Of a DNA stretch of 64,000 nucleotides, positions 1,063 through 16,940 are shown piece by piece. The position numbers and the translations under genes were made by a program. Source of the stretch: Escherichia coli (lineage in GTDB: Bacteria > Pseudomonadota > Gammaproteobacteria > Enterobacterales > Enterobacteriaceae); assembly GCF_003991155.1 (NCBI RefSeq), contig NZ_CP031293.1. The stretch is one strand, 5' to 3'. Below the pieces are notes generated by a model. That model had not been told where the DNA came from, searched no databases, and saw nothing but the letters and a program-made list of their open reading frames with translations. Position 1 is the stretch's first letter, and each line of letters starts with the position of its first letter.

Positions 1063-1365
1063 TGTTGGCTCCGTTTATCCGTTAAAAGGGATATCAGTTA
1101 AGTTATCCCGTGTAGGGTATAAGCCATTGTCGAGACCACTCATTGAATGGCCTCTGCAATAACCGATGTCTTTCCATCAGTCCGCCACCACAAAGAATCT
1201 TTTTTGCCATAAGGCTGGAGGTTCATCTTTCAGTGGCTGCCAGTGTTATTTCCCCACTTACTGGCTTGGGTTGTTTCGCTGTACTGCCGTTAATTGGTGA
1301 CCAGAAATTAACTCCGGTTTCATTATCAAGCCCACCCGTAGATGGGCTTTGTAATGACTACATGG

Positions 1366-1968
1366 TTAAATGATTTGCCAGTCTTCAGCCATCAGGTCGC
1401 CAATGGATGGAACCCATGTAGCAAGGCGGTTCTGTGAGTTTTTCAATACAAGCGTGTCATTGAAAGTTGGCTCGCCAACATATTCGCCAAAGCCATAACC
1501 CAACGCAGACGCTAATTTTTCCCCTTTCACGAGATAAACAAACTGGTCTTTCCCATTCCATCCTGCCCGCTGCAAACTTTTGCCCTGTTTTAACGCTTCC
1601 ATGGCAAGGCCGAAACTTAGCCCTGATACCGGACGATAAGCCTTCTCGAATACTTCTTTTGGACTCCAGCTAACGTAGCCATCAAAGCGATCGGTGTTAG
1701 GTTTTCCGCCATCCAGATATTCAACCAGATAGCCTTCGTCCTCGCCGTTTTCTCCGGCAGGAAGCTGCCAGCCACGAAAATCGTTATATGCCTGTCTCGT
1801 CATCGGAAAGGCGTTAATCAGTTTTACGCCAATATGCTGGGTCATAAAATTACCTATGCAGTTGGGAATAAAAAGCCCCGCAAATGCGAGGCTAAATCCT
1901 GGTATTTGTAATGAACTGGCTCTTATCTCAACGCAGCCCCTTGCCGCGCGCCATATGCTTAACTTCAA
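1366..1968 (-). CDS. Hypothetical phage protein (start uncertain, internal Met candidates)
   Basis: 200 aa ORF in late operon between lysis cassette and terminase; N-terminal 55 aa hydrophobic and possibly not translated. Confidence 0.4.
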   Translation of the reverse strand: MKLSIWRAARGCVEIRASSLQIPGFSLAFAGLFIPNCIGNFMTQHIGVKLINAFPMTRQAYNDFRGWQLPAGENGEDEGYLVEYLDGGKPNTDRFDGYVSWSPKEVFEKAYRPVSGLSFGLAMEALKQGKSLQRAGWNGKDQFVYLVKGEKLASALGYGFGEYVGEPTFNDTLVLKNSQNRLATWVPSIGDLMAEDWQII

Positions 1969-2067
1969 GCATCAGCAATGAGATGTTTAATCTGGATTCA
2001 CTCCAGAAGTGATCACCACCCTGCCTACAGAGCCAGATGTGAAGGATGATGAGTAGAATTATCGCTA

Positions 2068-2535
2068 TCATCGAAGGCATTGCGTCCTGATGTATTCCTG
2101 AAGCGTTCTCAGTGCTGTTTGGTCGCGGATAATTCCGTCCCGGATACCGAGAACGTTTCGTCCAGCAACTGGAGAGAGTTCGACGGTGGCATCATTGCCC
2201 ATGCCGGAGGCGCTGGAGGTTTCGGCTGAGGATGGCACAGGGCATTTTCCTTTGACGAGCACCCTGCCACCATTATCAAGCTTGCGCCGAAGAGCATCAT
2301 TTTCAGCTTTCGCATCAGCTAACTCCTTCGTGTATTTAGCATCAAGTGCATCAGCAGTACGCTGGCGCTGCTGCATGTCAGTAATGGTGGCAGTCGCCTG
2401 CTTCAGCTCACTGACTTTTTTATCACGCTGTTCTTTGTAGGCGATGGCGTTATCACGGTAATGATTAACAGCCCATGACAGGCAAACGATGATGCAGATA
2501 ACCAGAGCGGAGATAATCGCGGTTACTTTGCTCAT
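2068..2535 (-). CDS. Rz: Rz i-spanin
   Basis: [30 protein letters not shown]..., N-terminal TM anchor, lambda Rz-like, immediately after endolysin. Confidence 0.85.
2109..2315 (-). CDS. Rz1: Rz1 o-spanin lipoprotein, embedded in Rz in +1 frame
   Basis: [22 protein letters not shown]... lipobox plus proline-rich PPAPPAW segment, lambda Rz1-like, wholly inside Rz. Confidence 0.7.
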
Positions 2536-3008
2536 ACCTCAATCTCTCTGACCGTTCCGCCTGCTTCTTTGAATTTTGCAATCAGGCTGTCAGCCTTATG
2601 CTCGAACTGACCATAGCCAGCGCCCGGCAGTGAAGCCCAGATATTGCTGCAACGGTCAATTGCCTGACGAATATCACCGCGATCAATCATCGGTAAAGCG
2701 CCACGTTCTTTAATCTGTTGCAATGCCACAGCGTCCTGGCTTTTCGGAGAGAAGTCTTTCAGGCCAAGCTGCTTACGATAGGCATCCCACCAACGGGAAA
2801 GAAGCTGGTAACGTCCGGCTGCTGTTGATTTGAGTTTTGGGTTTAGCGTGACAAGTTTGCGAGGGTGATCGGAGTAATCAGTAAATAGCTCTCCGCCAAC
2901 AATGACGTCATAACCATGATTCCTGGTTTTCTGTCGTCCGTTATCAGTTCCCTCTGACCACGCCAGCATATCGAGGAACGCCTTACGTTGATTATTGATT
3001 TCCACCAT
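2532..3008 (-). CDS. R: Endolysin R (lambda-type lytic transglycosylase)
   Basis: 158 aa, [24 protein letters not shown]..., same length and N-terminus as lambda R. Confidence 0.9.
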
Positions 3009-3315
3009 CTTCTACTCCGGCTTTTTTAGCAGCGAAGCGTTTGATAAGCGAACCAATCGAGTCAGTACCGATGTAGCCGATGAACACGCTCGTTATATAA
3101 GCGAGATTGCTACTTAGTCCGGCGAAGTCGAGAAGGTCACGAATGAACCAGGCGATAATGGCGCACATCGTTGCGTCGATTACTGTTTTTGTAAACGCAC
3201 CGCCATTATATCTGCCGCGAAGGTACGCCATTGCAAACGCAAGGATTGCCCCGATGCCTTGTTCCTTTGCCGCGAGAATGGCAGCTAACAGGTCATGTTT
3301 TTCTGGCATCTTCAT
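2992..3315 (-). CDS. S: Holin S
   Basis: 107 aa, [39 protein letters not shown]..., lambda S-like with dual-start motif. Confidence 0.9.
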
Positions 3316-3615
3316 GTCTTACCCCCAATAAGGGGATTTGCTCTATTTAATTAGGAATAAGGTCGATTTCTGATAGAACAAATCCAGGCTACTGTGTTTA
3401 GTAATCAGATTTGTTCGTGACCGATATGCACGGGCAAAACGGCAGGAGGTTGTTAGCGCAGCCTCTTGCCACCCGCTTTCACGAAGCCAGCCATTGCGCT
3501 GGTTTTCTTTTATGCAAAGCACACCGCACCGTAGCCACAGCGGATAAGGTGATTATTTTGGTCTGTCTGGTATTTGGTTTGATGCGCTTTCAGAAAGGTC
3601 GTGCTTAAAACGCAA

Positions 3616-3748: not shown

Positions 3749-4372
3749 CTAACGTGTGACCGCATTCAAGATATTGTCTGCGATTGACTCTTCCTTGTGG
3801 CATTGCACCACCAGAGCGTCATACAGCGGCTTAACAGTGCGTGACCAGGTGGGTTGAGTAAGGTTTGGGATTAGCATCGTTACAGCGCGATATGCGGCGC
3901 TTGCTGGCATTCTTGAATAGCCGACACCTTTGCATCTTCCGCATTCTTTCTCAACAACTCTCCCCCACAACTCTGTTTTGGCAATATCAACCGCACGGCC
4001 TGTACCGTGGCAATCTCTGCATCTTGCGCCCGGCGTCGCGGCACTACGGCAATAATCCGCATAAGCGAATGTTGCGAGCACTTGCAGTACCTTTGCCTTA
4101 GTATTTCCTTCGAGCTTTGCCACACCACGGTATTTCCCCGATACCTTGTGTGCAAATTGCATCAGATAGTTGATAGCCTTTTGTTTGTCGTTCTGGCTGA
4201 GTTCGTGCTTACCGCAGAATGCAGCCATACCGAATCCGGCTTGTGATTGCGCCATCCCCATAGCAGCCATCACATCAGTACCGGAAAGGGAGTCAGAAGC
4301 CGTGGCCCGTGGTGAGTCGCTCATCATCGGGCTTTTTGGCGAATGAAATTTAGCTACGCTTTCGAGTCTCAT
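3749..4372 (-). CDS. Q: Late-gene antiterminator Q
   Basis: 207 aa with Cys-rich zinc-binding motif (CRDCHGTG...CGRCKG), positioned between nin region and PR'. Confidence 0.85.
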
Positions 4373-5034
4373 GCGCCTTCTCCCTGTACCTTAATCAATG
4401 TGAGGTTTCCGCAGAACACTGCTCCGGTATCGATATACATTTGGTTGGCAAACTTGAGTGGTTTCACTGCTGGCGTATGACCAAAGATGAACGTGTCCGC
4501 TCCCTTGATTTCTTTTACGATCCCGTCTTGTGAGTTGCTGATTCGTTCGCGGTTCCAGATTACCTGCTGATGAACAACTGGCTTTCCAAACTCGTATTCG
4601 TCACAAGGATAATCGGCGTGGCAGATAACATATTTTTTACCTTTGCTCACCAGTTCAATGATTAACGAAAGTTCATCTGCTTTATGGGCAAGAGCTTTAG
4701 CCAGAATTTCTTTGTCGTAATCGAGATTAAAGAACCAGCCACCGCCATTAAACAGCCAGTGATTGACGTTTCCACGCTCTGATAAGCCATCAATCATCAT
4801 TTGCTCATGGTTTCCACGTACAGCTCTGAACCAGGGGAATGTGATTAATTCCAGGCATTCGACGTTCTCTGTACCGCGATCGACCAAATCGCCAACCGAG
4901 ATAAGCAGGTCTTTTTTGATGTCGAATCCTATCGTCTCCAGTTTTTTCATCAGGTTCGTGTAGCATCCGTGCAGATCGCCAACTACCCAAATATTCCGGT
5001 ATTTGCTGCCATCAATTCTTTCGTAATAGCGCAT
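4369..5034 (-). CDS. ninI: Ser/Thr protein phosphatase (NinI)
   Basis: [25 protein letters not shown]... GDLVDRG, GNHE metallophosphatase motifs; start taken at internal Met matching lambda PPase. Confidence 0.85.
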
Positions 5035-5218
5035 CTCTTTCACTCCATCCGCGATGAACCATGAGAACGTCGTTGACGATGGCGTGCATTTTCCCGTCTT
5101 TATCATCAACGTATTTTCTTACCGTGCCGCGACTACATTTCAGTCTGCGTGCCACTTCTGTCTGGTTTCCGTATGCTTCAACGAGCATGTCTGGAATGGT
5201 TTTTACTGAGAACGTCAT
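5012..5218 (-). CDS. ninH: NinH
   Basis: 68 aa [37 protein letters not shown]..., lambda NinH-like. Confidence 0.8.
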
Positions 5219-13730: not shown

Positions 13731-13864
13731 TCGGCCTTTATTTTTGGCACTAACAACAGAATAAACACTGCACTGTGTATTCATTCCAACGAGTGAATAC
13801 ACGGAGCAATGTCGCTCTTAACTAAACAGGAGCCGACTTGTTCTGATTATTGGAAATCTTCTTT

Positions 13865-13891
13865 GCCCTCCAGTGTGAGGGCGATTTTTTT
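13865..13891 (+). terminator. tL-like intrinsic terminator
   Basis: GCCCTC-CAGTGT-GAGGGC followed by GATTTTTTT, 12 nt upstream of next start codon. Confidence 0.5.
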
Positions 13892-13903
13892 GATGGAGGA
13901 TAT

Positions 13904-14872
13904 ATGAGTGAAGTAACAGATTTAGTTGTTATTGAAAAAGCAAATGCAATGACTGTATTTCAGTCTGCCGACCAGATTGAAGAAATCCTTCAAAGGGTTG
14001 AACGTGAAGTTATGTCCTTTGTGCCTGATATCACAACGGCAAAGGGCAGAAAGGAGATCGCTTCTCTGGCGTATAAAGTTGCGCAGACGAAAACATATCT
14101 CGATGGTCTTGGCAAAGACCTTGTTGCTGAACTGAAGGAAATTCCAAAGCTAATTGATGCCAACCGCAAGACAGTGCGCGATCGCCTTGATGAGCTGAAA
14201 GCCAAGGCACGCCAGCCTCTTACTGATTATGAGGAAGAACAGGCGCGGATTAAAGCCGAAGAAGAAGCTAAGGCAGCAGCTGAAGCTCTCGCAAAGCAAA
14301 TTGAGTCTGACCATGAAATAGCTATTTTGATGGATCGCGAATTTGACCGCCAAAGAGAAGAGGCAAGACTCAAAGCGGAGCAGGAAAAGCGAGAGCATGA
14401 AGAACGCTTAAAAAGAGAAGCTGAAGAGAAAGCCAGAGCAGAAGCCGAAGCAAAGGCAAAAGCCGAAATTGAAGCAGCAGCAAGGCGAGAAGCAGAAGCT
14501 AAGGCCGCAGCGGAACGTGCAGAGCGTGAACGCATTGAAGCCGAGCAACGAGCACAGCGCGAAGCAAAAGAGGCAGCAGAACGAGCTGAAAGAGAAAAGC
14601 AGGCGGCAATTGAAGCAGAACGCCGAAAAGCACAGGAGGAGGCTGAACGAATCCGGCGCGAGGCTGAAGCAAAAGAGCAAGCCAGAATAGCAGAAGAAAA
14701 AAGAATCAAGGACGAAGAAGAGCGTAGAGCAAAGGATAAAGCTCACCGGAAAGAAGTAAATAACAAAATACTTGCTGACCTTATCAAGGTTGGCGCATCA
14801 GAAGATGTTGCTAAAAATATCATAACAGCCATCGTAAAAGGCGAAGTATTCGCAACAAAAATAACCTACTAA
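13904..14872 (+). CDS. Hypothetical protein with long charged E/R/K/A-rich single alpha-helix segment
   Basis: N-terminal about 110 aa domain, about 170 aa low-complexity AEAK/ERAE repeats, short C-terminal domain; GGAGG RBS. Confidence 0.5.
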   Translation: MSEVTDLVVIEKANAMTVFQSADQIEEILQRVEREVMSFVPDITTAKGRKEIASLAYKVAQTKTYLDGLGKDLVAELKEIPKLIDANRKTVRDRLDELKAKARQPLTDYEEEQARIKAEEEAKAAAEALAKQIESDHEIAILMDREFDRQREEARLKAEQEKREHEERLKREAEEKARAEAEAKAKAEIEAAARREAEAKAAAERAERERIEAEQRAQREAKEAAERAEREKQAAIEAERRKAQEEAERIRREAEAKEQARIAEEKRIKDEEERRAKDKAHRKEVNNKILADLIKVGASEDVAKNIITAIVKGEVFATKITY

Positions 14873-15418: not shown

Positions 15419-16126
15419 ATGGATTTGAACAAATTCGATGAACCATTCAGCCCTGAAGATATCGAATGGCGAATACAGCAAAGCGGTAAAACACGCGATG
15501 GCAAGGTGTGGGCTATGGTGCTGGCTTATGTCACGAACCGGGCAATCATGAAACGCCTGGACGATGTTTGCGGCAAAGCAGGATGGCGCAATGAATACCG
15601 CGATATTCCCAACAACGGCGGAGTTGAATGCGGCATATCAATCAAGATTGATTCCGAATGGGTAACCAAATGGGATGCTGCTGAAAACACGCAGGTAGAA
15701 GCCGTCAAAGGTGGTCGTTCCGGTGCAATGAAGCGTGCTGCCGTTCAATGGGGAATCGGTCGGTATCTGTATAACCTTGAGGAAGGTTTCGCACAAACAT
15801 CTCTCGATAAAAAGCAGGGATGGCACAGGGCAAAACTGAAGGATGGAACAGGATTTTACTGGCTCCCTCCATCGCTGCCGGGATGGGCAATCCCAGCATC
15901 AGATAACAAACCATCACCAGAAAATACCAACCAGAAATCTCCATCGGTTGACTGCGAACAAATCCTGAAAGACTTCAGCGATTATGCATCAACAGAAACT
16001 GACAAGAAAAAACTCATCGAGCGTTATCAGCGTGACTGGCAATTAATGGCTGGCAACGAGGAGGCGCAGGCTAAATGCGTTCAGGTAATGAACATCAGAG
16101 TTAACGAACTAAAACAGGCGGCATAA
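15419..16126 (+). CDS. Putative single-strand annealing protein (Rad52/Sak-like)
   Basis: 235 aa immediately upstream of ssb in the recombination module; family assignment from memory. Confidence 0.45.
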   Translation: MDLNKFDEPFSPEDIEWRIQQSGKTRDGKVWAMVLAYVTNRAIMKRLDDVCGKAGWRNEYRDIPNNGGVECGISIKIDSEWVTKWDAAENTQVEAVKGGRSGAMKRAAVQWGIGRYLYNLEEGFAQTSLDKKQGWHRAKLKDGTGFYWLPPSLPGWAIPASDNKPSPENTNQKSPSVDCEQILKDFSDYASTETDKKKLIERYQRDWQLMAGNEEAQAKCVQVMNIRVNELKQAA

Positions 16127-16633
16127 ATGGCAAGCAGAGGCGTAAATAAGGTGATTATCCTTGGTCGGGTAGGACAAGACCCGGAAGTTCGATACTCACC
16201 ATCAGGAACAGCGTTCGCTAACCTGACAATAGCCACGTCAGAACAATGGCGAGATAAAAATACTGGCGAGCAAAAGGAATTAACTGAATGGCATCGTGTT
16301 GCTGTATCCGGGAAACTGGCTGAGGTCGTGGGGCAGTATGTGAAAAAAGGTGATCAGATTTATTTCGAGGGAATGCTGAGAACCAGAAAGTGGAAAGACC
16401 AGTCAGGGCAAGACCGTTACACAACCGAGGTTCATGTCGGAATTAATGGCGTGATGCAAATGCTTGGCGGCATTGGCGACAGCAAACAACAAGCAGCCAG
16501 CAGGCAATCACAGAAGCCACAGCAGCAATCATCACCAGCACAACACAACGAACCTCCGATGGATTTTGACGACGATATACCCTTTGCACCAGTAACTCTC
16601 CCCTTCCCTCGTCACGCTATTCACGCAATTTAA
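16127..16633 (+). CDS. ssb: Single-stranded DNA-binding protein
   Basis: OB-fold N-terminus [34 protein letters not shown]..., Gly/Gln-rich linker, DFDDDIPF acidic tip followed by extra 15 aa. Confidence 0.9.
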
Positions 16634-16646
16634 TCAGGAGAAAATC

Positions 16647-16940
16647 ATGCCAGCGCCTCTGTATGGTGCGGATGACCCGCGCCGCTGTTCCGGCAATTCC
16701 GTATCGGAGGTGCTGGATAAATTCAGGAAAAACTACGACCTGATAATGTCGCTACCGCAGGAAACGAAAGAGGAAAAGGAATTTCGCCATTGTATATGGC
16801 TTGCAGAGAAAGAAGAACGCGAGCGAATTTACCAGACATCAATCCGACCATTCCGCAAAGCCACATATACCCACTTCCCTGAAATTGACCCGCGCCTGCG
16901 TAATTACCGCTCACGCTATGGCGCTATCAGTAATGACTGA
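16647..16940 (+). CDS. Hypothetical phage protein (97 aa)
   Basis: ORF with AGGAG RBS. Confidence 0.45.

What the first reader, a model, noticed from the sequence alone, without database searches (positions are those of the whole stretch)
16127..16633. Phage SSB carries a 15-residue extension beyond the conserved DDDIPF tip
The protein has the OB-fold N-terminus, the Gly/Gln-rich linker and the acidic DFDDDIPF motif, but then continues [15 protein letters not shown] before the stop. In bacterial SSBs the partner-binding tip is the free C-terminus. An internal tip suggests altered or blocked partner binding, perhaps a decoy that sequesters host SSB interactors, or a read-through variant.
Basis: seen in the sequence. 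Interest (0 to 1): 0.45.

Follow-up and report, generated by a model that had tools for sequence, protein, structure and literature searches.

The report
Capped partner-binding tip on mobile-element SSBs
This prophage's single-stranded-DNA-binding protein buries its normally terminal host-docking motif under a conserved 15-residue cap that is shared by SSBs of many phages and conjugative plasmids, so it is a selected and apparently undescribed feature rather than a read-through accident, but what it binds is still unknown.

Summary
ORF 16127-16633 encodes a 168-aa bacterial-type SSB ending [23 protein letters not shown].

The read-through idea is wrong. The 15-residue extension is a conserved C-terminal module, [AS]P[IV][GT]L[PQ][FY]x[RK][HN]x[IL][HY]x[ILF]. 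It occurs in 111 of the 120 nearest protein clusters, 115 phage records, 103 plasmid records (72 conjugative, e.g. IncN) and about 300-400 of 5426 complete E. coli genomes. It sits on at least six unrelated SSB-like scaffolds.

Codon comparisons show purifying selection on the peptide: pN/pS is 0.07-0.2 at saturated synonymous divergence.

Close relatives that end at IPF do so because an HNH endonuclease cassette is inserted exactly at the IPF|AP junction (Sf6, Huey). In Vequintavirus the extension arrives together with such a cassette. Three natural with/without pairs show the cap is optional.

AF2 predicts the tail to be disordered. Published data show that a single extra residue abolishes chi binding.

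Best reading: a short linear motif that blocks canonical docking, which needs the free C-terminal carboxylate, and re-targets the tail, probably to a host partner. The partner is unidentified. I found no description in the literature.

The parts
15419..16126 (+). Rad52/Erf-like single-strand annealing protein (235 aa). Its TAA stop abuts the ssb ATG.
   Evidence: phrog_1097, E=3.5e-130. RefSeq relatives are annotated 'Rad52/Rad22 family DNA repair protein'. Sequence.
16127..16633 (+). ssb gene, 168 aa plus stop: a bacterial-type SSB with an internal tip and a 15-aa cap.
   Evidence: (phrog_44, E=1.6e-66).
16142..16438 (+). OB-fold ssDNA-binding and oligomerisation domain (residues 6-104).
   Evidence: PF00436, E=2.1e-36. 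AF2 pLDDT is 72-85 over this part.
16439..16561 (+). Gln/Pro/Ser/Gly-rich disordered linker (residues 105-145). It is highly variable among relatives.
   Evidence: AF2 pLDDT is below 50 from residue 111. Linker variability is seen.
16562..16585 (+). Acidic tip DFDDDIPF (residues 146-153), identical to the host SSB-Ct but internal.
   Evidence: In extension-bearing genes the tip has pN=0.00-0.03 at pS~1.
16586..16630 (+). 15-residue cap [15 protein letters not shown] (type A of the conserved extension). It contains a second hydrophobic-Pro-aromatic element (LPF), a basic R-H pair, and a new hydrophobic C-terminus.
16585..16586 (.). Empty insertion site of the phrog_2340 HNH endonuclease cassette, between TTT (F153) and GCA (A154).
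   Evidence: Alignment of window against Huey: a 468-nt cassette sits exactly here, and 8 of the 9 ssb differences fall in the 28 nt 5' of it. Sf6 shows the same arrangement.
16647..16940 (+). abc2 anti-RecBCD gene (97 aa), 13 nt after the ssb stop, with its own AGGAG ribosome-binding site.
   Evidence: phrog_656, E=4.1e-55. Annotations.

Best explanation
The 15 residues are a genuine, selected and horizontally portable C-terminal module of SSB-like proteins encoded by mobile elements of gamma-proteobacteria: temperate and virulent phages and conjugative plasmids.

The module turns the promiscuous free tip (...DDDIPF-COO-) into an internal motif. That motif is followed by a disordered short linear motif, [AS]P[IV][GT]L[PQ][FY]x[RK][HN]x[IL][HY]x[ILF]-COO-.

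Shown:
- the module is real;
- both the tip and the cap are conserved at the amino-acid level across saturated synonymous divergence;
- the cap has a fixed length;
- it occurs on at least six unrelated SSB scaffolds and next to three different recombinase families, or next to none;
- it is optional in three natural with/without pairs;
- its coding DNA is a hot spot for HNH/EndoVII-type endonuclease cassettes.

Inferred mechanism: canonical SSB partners (chi, RecO, ExoI and others) clamp the terminal Phe carboxylate, so the cap blocks or weakens that docking. Tip and cap together then form a bipartite motif that folds on binding a different surface. That surface is most likely on a host protein, because phages and plasmids share nothing else. 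The element's ssDNA is therefore coated by an SSB with re-programmed partner choice. For example, it may no longer hand DNA to the ExoI or RecFOR/RecA-loading pathways.

Inferred spread: endonuclease cassettes home to the universally conserved tip-coding DNA. Through co-conversion they carry the cap-coding 45 nt between otherwise unrelated ssb-like genes.
For: Prevalence
- 111 of the best 120 90%-identity clusters carry the cap, although the linker in front of it is hypervariable.
- The 27-aa tail hits 115 phage records, including HK75, mEp235, epsilon34, ECP1, Vibrio phages, PVP-SE1, Seu621, phi92, mEp554 and Hafnia phage.
- It hits 103 plasmid records, 72 of them conjugative, with IncN pTR3 and an IncT plasmid verified.
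- 405 of 5426 complete E. coli genomes carry it, 296 at full length.
- 152 of the first 600 pattern hits in IMG/VR carry it.

Scaffolds: phrog_44, 2544, 4477, 32668, 3284 and 9002.

Selection
- PVP-SE1 vs phi92: pS 0.93, pN 0.07. V039C vs PVP-SE1: 1.04 and 0.17. BUCT618 vs morffagbaw: 0.98 and 0.12.
- Window vs IncN: 0.77 and 0.11.
- Across 47 distinct DNA sequences, pooled pN/pS is 0.22-0.42. Leu5 is kept in 46 of 47 using 7 codons, and Pro2 in 43 of 47.

Neighbours differ
- Rad52-like, Erf or Sak4/AAA_24 recombinases; abc2, an exonuclease, or nothing; plasmid leading regions.

Disorder: AF2 gives pLDDT 30-39 for residues 111-168, with no intramolecular docking.

Need for a free carboxylate: SSB+Gly loses chi binding (PMC3045619); RecO R132 anchors the carboxylate (PMC3152348).

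Endonuclease link and optional status
- Huey and Sf6 carry an insertion at IPF|AP.
- rV5_ev168 differs from Bas52 by a ~660-nt extension-plus-endoVII block.
- PVP-SE1 differs from GEC_vB_MG by presence or absence of the cap.
- The endonuclease start codon lies inside the cap codons in mEp554, morffagbaw and rV5_ev168.
- phrog_2340 and phrog_1035 assignments.
Against: - No partner was identified. The only docking attempt (ExoI fused to the tail) failed technically, because ExoI itself was modelled at pLDDT 52.
- The cap is dispensable. Sf6, Huey, Bas52 and GEC_vB_MG are viable without it on their SSB.
- A pure 'block' would not need a conserved sequence, and a pure 'new partner' would not need the tip to stay intact. 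The bipartite reading reconciles the two but is untested.
- E. coli phages carry three cap subtypes (A, B1, B2). One shared host partner would have to tolerate all of them.
- Part of the wide distribution could reflect endonuclease-driven spread rather than benefit.
Confidence: 0.5

Rival explanations
1. Selfish footprint. The cap has no function of its own. It is simply the 5' edge or flank of homing-endonuclease cassettes that read in frame from ssb, spread by homing, and persist after the endonuclease is lost.
For: In Vequintavirus the cap and the endoVII gene are one inserted block. In mEp554, morffagbaw and rV5_ev168 the endonuclease ATG lies inside the cap codons. The cap is optional. 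Among E. coli and Salmonella lambdoid phages its 45 nt are almost invariant, while the tip codons next to it vary.
Against: None of 75 IMG/VR cap-bearing loci has such an endonuclease next to ssb. IncN and IncT plasmids, PVP-SE1, phi92 and Vibrio phages have the cap without one. The length is fixed at 14-16 aa, and pN/pS is 0.07-0.2 at saturated pS in the ssb frame. A neutral remnant would not show either. Third-position changes in the ssb frame are non-synonymous in the endonuclease frame.
Confidence: 0.12
2. Degradation or remodelling tag. The new basic-then-hydrophobic C-terminus (e.g. [24 protein letters not shown]) is recognised by a host AAA+ protease or unfoldase, such as ClpXP, to limit or remodel the mobile element's SSB.
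For: The position is strictly C-terminal and the length is fixed. The last residue is hydrophobic (I, L, V, F or M) in all 47 variants, and a basic residue usually lies 6-7 positions upstream. From memory only, this resembles MuA-type ClpX signals (RRKKAI) and the bipartite ssrA tag.
Against: The most conserved part is the N-terminal half of the cap (A-P-[IV]-[GT]-L-x-aromatic) together with the tip, which a C-terminal degron would not need. No experimental or database evidence was found. It was not testable here.
Confidence: 0.12
3. Intramolecular cap. The extension folds back on the tip or on the OB fold to auto-inhibit partner or DNA binding until ssDNA is bound.
For: The basic R/K and H residues could neutralise the DDD, and the hydrophobic residues could cover IPF. 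The host tip is known to bind its own OB fold (cited in PMC5928155). AF2 draws a weak 154-156/165-167 strand pairing.
Against: AF2 confidence for the whole tail is 30-39, with no docking on the OB fold. The same cap sits on at least six unrelated scaffolds, which argues against a scaffold-specific contact.
Confidence: 0.1
4. Docking site for an element-encoded partner: the adjacent annealing protein, the Rv2179c-like exonuclease, Abc2, or the endonuclease.
For: Phage SSB tails can recruit cognate recombinases (HK620 SSB and Sak4, PMC5928155). Here ssb is translationally abutted to the annealing protein.
Against: The cap occurs with Rad52-like, Erf and Sak4 recombinases. It also occurs in virulent myoviruses and conjugative plasmids that lack all of these. 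The same 235-aa annealing protein works next to abc1 with no phage ssb at all in SPN9CC.
Confidence: 0.07
5. Recent read-through or lost stop codon, or an annotation or sequence artefact.
For: Some close relatives end at IPF (P0008-P0013).
Against: Those relatives carry an inserted endonuclease cassette that supplies the stop. The cap is present in hundreds of independent records with different codons.
Confidence: 0.01
6. A DNA- or RNA-level element (promoter, terminator, or coupling signal for abc2) is what is conserved, not the peptide.
For: The 45 nt are nearly invariant among E. coli and Salmonella lambdoid phages and are contiguous with a very conserved abc2 5' end.
Against: There is no promoter- or terminator-like site here. 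Downstream genes differ or are convergent. Outside the lambdoid group synonymous sites are saturated while the peptide is kept.
Confidence: 0.03

Closest known systems
E. coli chromosomal SSB and its C-terminal tip (SSB-Ct, ...[13 protein letters not shown]), the hub for about 17-20 partner proteins
   Same: It has the same OB fold (PF00436, TIGR00621), a disordered linker, and an identical [11 protein letters not shown] sequence.
   Different: The tip is not terminal here. 15 conserved residues follow it, and these lie outside every curated SSB profile. Published SSB+Gly data predict loss of canonical docking.
[quoted passage not shown]
   Same: These are mobile-element copies of bacterial SSB, expressed when the element is single-stranded (PMC8406263). 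IncN and IncT plasmid SSBs carry the same cap.
   Different: From my own knowledge, the studied F-type SSBs end with a canonical tip. No study of a capped plasmid SSB was found.
Bas52_0087, the two-OB SSB-like protein of Vequintavirus RudolfGeigy, trigger of the DRT10 defence and linked to ExoI/SbcB (bioRxiv 10.64898/2026.04.29.721553)
   Same: It is a phage SSB-like protein with an FDDDIPF tip. Its orthologues in rV5_ev168 and PVP-SE1 carry the cap.
   Different: Bas52_0087 itself ends at IPF with no cap. The scaffold is different (phrog_4477). The preprint does not mention the capped variants.
HK620 SSB with Sak4 (tail NDYPPF needed for recombinase recruitment), and the acidic tails of T7 gp2.5 and T4 gp32
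   Same: These are phage SSBs whose C-terminal tail is the protein-protein interaction element.
   Different: In those proteins the aromatic residue is the free C-terminus, and none has a conserved cap. Here the cap co-occurs with Sak4-type, Erf-type and Rad52-type recombinases alike.
Free-standing homing endonucleases of phages (e.g. T4 Seg/Mob; from my own knowledge)
   Same: These are endonuclease ORFs inserted at or next to a conserved gene, present or absent among near-identical genomes, with substitutions clustered beside the insertion point.
   Different: Cleavage and homing were not tested. These cassettes (phrog_2340 and phrog_1035) sit at the ssb tail and either split the tip from the cap or bring the cap along.

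Membership tests
Bacterial-type SSB (Pfam PF00436 / NCBIfam TIGR00621) | N-terminal OB-fold domain matching the family profile | tested here: met
   PF00436, residues 6-104, E=2.1e-36. phrog_44, E=1.6e-66.
Bacterial-type SSB (Pfam PF00436 / NCBIfam TIGR00621) | Whole-protein score above the curated cut-off | tested here: met
   TIGR00621 scores 166.9 bits against a cut-off of 53.95. Residues 4-153 align to profile positions 2-165 of 165.
Bacterial-type SSB (Pfam PF00436 / NCBIfam TIGR00621) | Disordered Gly/Gln/Pro-rich linker followed by the acidic tip D-D-D-I-P-F | tested here: met
   Sequence. AF2 pLDDT is below 50 from residue 111.
Bacterial-type SSB (Pfam PF00436 / NCBIfam TIGR00621) | The tip Phe is the free C-terminus (its carboxylate is read by partner proteins) | tested here: not met
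   15 residues follow F153. The relevance of the carboxylate is documented in PMC3045619 and PMC3152348.
Bacterial-type SSB (Pfam PF00436 / NCBIfam TIGR00621) | Homotetramer that binds ssDNA | not testable with these tools
   Only inferred from 60-90% identity to characterised-type SSBs.
Capped-tip SSB tail of mobile elements (class proposed here) | [DE]x[IV]PF followed by [AS]P[IV][GT]L[PQ][FYH]x[RKS][HN]x[ILV][HYN]x[ILVFM] and then the stop, 14-16 residues in all | tested here: met
   The window tail is the commonest type-A form. Compare.
ssb-tail endonuclease cassette (phrog_2340 / phrog_1035, HNH/EndoVII-like) | Endonuclease ORF inserted at IPF|AP or overlapping the end of the cap | tested here: not met
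   In the window only 13 nt separate the ssb stop from the abc2 ATG, and no such ORF is present. The window therefore has the empty-site allele.
P22-type early-left recombination module (annealing protein, then abc1 or ssb, then abc2) | Rad52/Erf-like annealing protein upstream and Abc2 downstream, in one operon orientation | tested here: met
   phrog_1097 and phrog_656. The same order is seen in HK75, epsilon34, Sf6 and SPN9CC.
Beta-clamp-binding motif (QL[SD]LF / QLxLxL; considered from memory for PVTLPF/PIGLQY) | Gln at position 1 and Leu/Phe at the hydrophobic positions; binding to the clamp pocket | tested here: not met
   Position 1 is Pro in 43 of 47 variants and is never Gln. Binding itself was not testable, so the idea was dropped.
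ClpX-type C-terminal degron | Recognition and degradation by ClpXP through the last residues | not testable with these tools
   There is only a resemblance recalled from memory: a basic residue followed by a hydrophobic C-terminus.

The most novel reading that the evidence does not exclude
The cap is a widespread counter-host device of mobile elements. It converts the universal SSB docking tip into a private bipartite motif. The element's ssDNA then becomes invisible to, or actively blocks, host tip-dependent enzymes such as ExoI and RecO/RecA loading, which would suppress degradation and SOS induction. Alternatively, it captures one specific host hub. The device is moved between unrelated SSB scaffolds by homing endonucleases that use the conserved tip-coding DNA as a universal landing site.
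Probability: 0.33. Interest if true: 0.8.

Novelty: new variant of a known kind. Interest (0 to 1): 0.6.

Why it matters
The SSB C-terminal tip is the central docking hub of bacterial genome maintenance, and it is thought to work only as a free C-terminus. This finding shows a large, selected class of phage and conjugative-plasmid SSBs in which the tip is kept intact but capped.

That raises a directly testable question: which host interactions do mobile elements keep, lose or gain on their ssDNA? The answer bears on several things:
- phage recombination and recombineering portability;
- SOS suppression during conjugation;
- defence systems that sense phage SSBs or ExoI activity, such as DRT10, Retron-Eco8 and DARNA.

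Nature already supplies isogenic-like pairs with and without the cap: Huey/HK75, Bas52/rV5_ev168 and GEC_vB_MG/PVP-SE1.

The finding also shows the ssb tail to be a recurrent target of endonuclease cassettes. That explains how one short peptide came to sit on unrelated proteins.

Tried and rejected
1. AF2 of the whole SSB. The tail has low confidence and does not dock, so nothing supports an intramolecular cap.
2. AF2 of ExoI, GS linker and tail as one chain. This failed. ExoI itself had mean pLDDT 52, because the alignment held only sequences 84-99% identical. The tail scored 23-26.
3. PDB sequence searches with the tail. No solved structure contains the cap. The cap-only query gave E. coli RecO (3q8d) residues 142-159, LGYGVNFTHC, against LQYGRNFIHC, at E=0.11 (domain E 1.9). 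It is a curious hit because RecO is an SSB partner. It is not significant, it is limited to subtype B1, and it lies away from the RecO tip pocket. I treat it as coincidence.
4. Beta-clamp motif idea. Dropped because there is no Gln at position 1.
5. Origin from the P22 abc1 gene that occupies the same slot. Abc1 ends ...SRLSRLRKK, with no similarity, and DNA homology starts only after the ssb stop.
6. Promoter and terminator scan. Nothing found at 16580-16650.
7. Pfam on the endonucleases. No significant hit. PHROGs did place them.
8. PADLOC on the three genes. Nothing found.
9. Literature. The peptide strings give zero papers. Searches on SSB C-terminal extensions, plasmid SSBs, homing endonucleases at ssb, and the epsilon34 genome paper do not mention the cap.

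Full report
**1. The observation**

The ORF at 16127-16633 (+) is exactly as described: 168 aa, ending ...[28 protein letters not shown]. Residues 6-104 are a Pfam SSB OB fold (E=2.1e-36). The curated NCBIfam SSB profile TIGR00621 is passed easily (166.9 bits against a cut-off of 53.95). It aligns from end to end up to F153 and no further. The 15 residues 154-168 (nt 16586-16630) therefore lie beyond the canonical end of the family.

The gene sits in a P22-type early-left recombination module of a mosaic lambdoid E. coli prophage. A Rad52/Erf-like annealing protein (15419-16126, phrog_1097) abuts the ssb ATG. The anti-RecBCD gene abc2 (16647-16940, phrog_656) follows 13 nt after the stop.

**2. 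Not a one-off and not a read-through**

Of the 120 best 90%-identity clusters, 111 carry a 15-residue extension of the same pattern after the tip. They come from E. coli, Salmonella, Klebsiella, Citrobacter, Enterobacter and other hosts, and the linker in front of the tip is hypervariable.

A tblastn search with the 27-aa tail finds 115 phage records. These are not only lambdoid or P22-like phages such as HK75, mEp235, epsilon34, g341c and ECP1. They also include:
- Vibrio phages;
- Hafnia phage Pocitis76;
- mEp554, morffagbaw and BUCT618;
- the large virulent myoviruses PVP-SE1 (gp39, 409 aa), Seu621 (406 aa) and phi92 (gp156, 315 aa).

The same search finds 103 plasmid records, 72 of them conjugative. 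The IncN pTR3 SSB ends ...[24 protein letters not shown]. An IncT SSB ends ...IDFNDDIPFAGLGASFGKHTIHAIC*.

The 90 nt encoding tip plus cap occur in 405 of 5426 complete E. coli genomes, 296 at full length.

A profile of the 30-aa tail against 1.84 billion cluster representatives recovers 48 proteins. Several are 250-480 aa long with other N-termini. PHROG assignment shows the tail on at least six families: 44, 2544, 4477, 32668, 3284 and 9002.

The consensus is ...[DE]x[IV]PF-[AS]P[IV][GT]L[PQ][FYH]x[RKS][HN]x[ILV][HYN]x[ILVFM]-COOH. There are three intergrading subtypes:
- A: [10 protein letters not shown][AT]I[HY][AV]I, the form in the window;
- B1: AP[IV]GLQYGRN[FL][IL]H[CV][IF];
- B2: xx[VI]GLQYGK[HS]R[IV][YH]AL.

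**3. Selection acts on the peptide**

Codon alignments show mostly third-position change. Nei-Gojobori counts within subtypes, at saturated synonymous divergence, are:

| Pair | pS | pN |
|---|---|---|
| PVP-SE1 vs phi92 | 0.93 | 0.07 |
| V039C vs PVP-SE1 | 1.04 | 0.17 |
| BUCT618 vs morffagbaw | 0.98 | 0.12 |
| window vs IncN plasmid | 0.77 | 0.11 |

Over 47 distinct cap-coding DNA sequences (32 peptides), pooled pN/pS is 0.22 for pairs with pS 0.25-0.5 and 0.42 for saturated pairs. Leu5 is kept in 46 of 47 sequences using 7 codons, and Pro2 in 43 of 47. The tip in front of the cap is even more constrained (pN 0.00-0.03). Both halves therefore matter as protein.

Among E. coli and Salmonella lambdoid phages the 45 nt are nearly invariant, while the tip codons vary silently. 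This fits recent shared ancestry of the cap and abc2 5' block plus endonuclease-associated polymorphism in the tip (section 4). A DNA-level function is less likely. No promoter- or terminator-like site is present, and outside this group synonymous sites are saturated.

**4. Endonuclease cassettes and natural with/without pairs**

In Huey the ssb is identical to the window over nt 1-431 except for one base. It then shows 8 changes in nt 432-456 and ends ...NFDDEIPF*. A 468-nt cassette (stop, ribosome-binding site, 155-aa endonuclease ORF) follows exactly between F153 and A154. The endonuclease reads in frame into [14 protein letters not shown], after which the sequence is again that of the window. 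Sf6 gp27/gp26 shows the same arrangement. The short, canonical-looking relatives P0008-P0013 (...DDSDIPF) are this allele. The stop after IPF is therefore gained with the cassette. It was not lost in the window.

The Huey, Sf6, mEp554 and morffagbaw enzymes are all phrog_2340, and the family profile ends before the borrowed tail. Sf6 gp26 and the mEp554 enzyme are 52% identical over the HNH part (E=1e-32).

In mEp554, morffagbaw and rV5_ev168 the endonuclease ATG lies inside the cap codons, in another frame.

In Vequintavirus, Bas52_0087 is the published DRT10 trigger described as having an FDDDIPF 'C-tip'. It ends at IPF. Its 99%-identical orthologue in rV5_ev168 carries a ~660-nt block, cap (APVGLQYGKSRIHAL) plus endoVII (phrog_1035), inserted right after the tip. 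Substitutions cluster in the 45 nt 5' of the junction.

In Seunavirus, GEC_vB_MG ends at IPF and PVP-SE1 has the cap, with no endonuclease in either.

The cap is thus optional in three lineages, and its coding DNA is a hot spot for these cassettes. I infer, but did not test, that the conserved tip-coding DNA serves as the landing site and left homology arm. That would explain how one peptide reached unrelated scaffolds.

The cap is nevertheless mostly found without an endonuclease. None of 75 IMG/VR loci has one. The next gene there is abc2 in 20, an Rv2179c-like exonuclease in 23, and other or no match in 32.

**5. How it most likely works**

Canonical partners read the free Phe carboxylate. 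EcoSSB with a single added Gly shows no detectable chi binding and is impaired in vivo (PMC3045619). RecO R132 anchors the carboxyl end, and R132A abolishes binding (PMC3152348). A 15-residue continuation should therefore block or weaken that docking mode.

Yet the tip stays intact and the cap sequence is conserved. This argues that the tip and cap together form a bipartite linear motif for some surface. AF2 predicts residues 111-168 to be disordered (pLDDT 30-39) with no docking on the OB fold, as expected for a motif that folds on binding.

The cap occurs next to Rad52-like, Erf and Sak4 recombinases, in virulent myoviruses, and in plasmid leading regions. An element-encoded partner is therefore unlikely and a host protein is favoured.

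Plasmid SSBs are known to dampen mating-induced SOS (PMC8406263). ExoI has been linked to a phage SSB-like trigger. Re-programmed access of RecO/RecA-loading or ExoI to the element's ssDNA is thus a reasonable functional guess, but it remains a guess.

**6. What did not work**

The ExoI-tail fusion model failed because ExoI itself was poorly modelled from a shallow alignment. No PDB entry contains the cap. A cap-only search gave a non-significant resemblance to RecO 142-159 (E=0.11), away from its tip pocket. The beta-clamp motif idea fails on the missing Gln. P22 Abc1 is unrelated. PADLOC finds nothing.

**7. Known or new**

The protein is a bona fide member of the bacterial SSB family by profile. 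It fails the one feature that defines how the family's tail works, a terminal tip. No curated profile covers the cap. No paper in the searchable library contains the peptide or describes a capped tip. The DRT10 preprint discusses only the uncapped Bas52 protein. The Sf6 GenBank note records a 14-residue identity between gp26 and 'E. coli SSB' without explaining it.

I rate this as a new variant of a known kind. Interest is moderate to high: it is surprising to specialists of the SSB interactome and immediately testable with natural with/without pairs, but its mechanism is unresolved.

Noticed in passing
window 16585|16586; L018 (Huey) 1060-1545; L016 (Sf6) 1975-2463: A phrog_2340 HNH-type endonuclease cassette is inserted exactly between the tip and the cap in Huey and Sf6. 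The SSB regains a free tip, and the endonuclease ORF ends with the former cap ([14 protein letters not shown]). 8 of the 9 ssb differences from the window lie in the 28 nt beside the junction.
   Followed up: yes
L019 (Bas52/RudolfGeigy) 3982-5208 vs L020 (rV5_ev168) 1201-3067: The published DRT10 trigger Bas52_0087 ends at ...FDDDIPF. Its 99%-identical orthologue in rV5_ev168 carries a cap plus an endonuclease VII gene as one ~660-nt insertion. This is a ready-made natural pair for testing the cap against DRT10.
   Followed up: yes
L004 (mEp554) 2523-2584; L009 (morffagbaw) 2047-2075; L020 2444-2472: The endonuclease start codon lies inside the last nine cap codons of ssb, in another reading frame (..TATGGAAAA..). 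This suggests translational coupling of the endonuclease to ssb.
   Followed up: partly
L017 (SPN9CC) 473-1804 vs window 15419-16940: P22-like phages carry the same 235-aa annealing protein and abc2, but have abc1 (94 aa) in the slot that ssb occupies here. DNA homology resumes right after the ssb stop. abc1 and ssb look like alternative cassettes.
   Followed up: partly
L011 (epsilon34) 2016-2564; L015 2013-2561; L027, L028: In many relatives a 182-aa DEDD-type 3'-5' exonuclease (phrog_255, Pfam Rv2179c-like) is inserted between the ssb stop and abc2. It is absent from the window. It was the next gene in 23 of 75 IMG/VR loci.
   Followed up: partly
PDB 3q8d (E. coli RecO) residues 142-159: The B1 cap LQYGRNFIHCI resembles RecO LGYGVNFTHCA (E=0.11, not significant). 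It is odd because RecO is an SSB-tip partner, but the segment is not part of its tip pocket.
   Followed up: partly
L021 (IncN pTR3) 2005-3353: On the IncN plasmid the capped ssb is followed by a convergent SprT-family zinc metalloprotease gene and then by antirestriction genes. Whether the protease relates to the SSB tail is unknown.
   Followed up: no
window 13850-14872: A 322-340-aa ORF upstream of the recombination genes has a long Glu/Lys/Ala/Arg-rich coiled-coil-like stretch (phrog_1376/21365, function unknown). RefSeq relatives are annotated 'TolA' or 'coiled-coil domain-containing protein'.
   Followed up: no
window 16562-16606: In the type-A tail, the tip IPF and the cap LPF form two hydrophobic-Pro-Phe elements seven residues apart ([13 protein letters not shown]). 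This may be a relic of a partial duplication of the tip.
   Followed up: no
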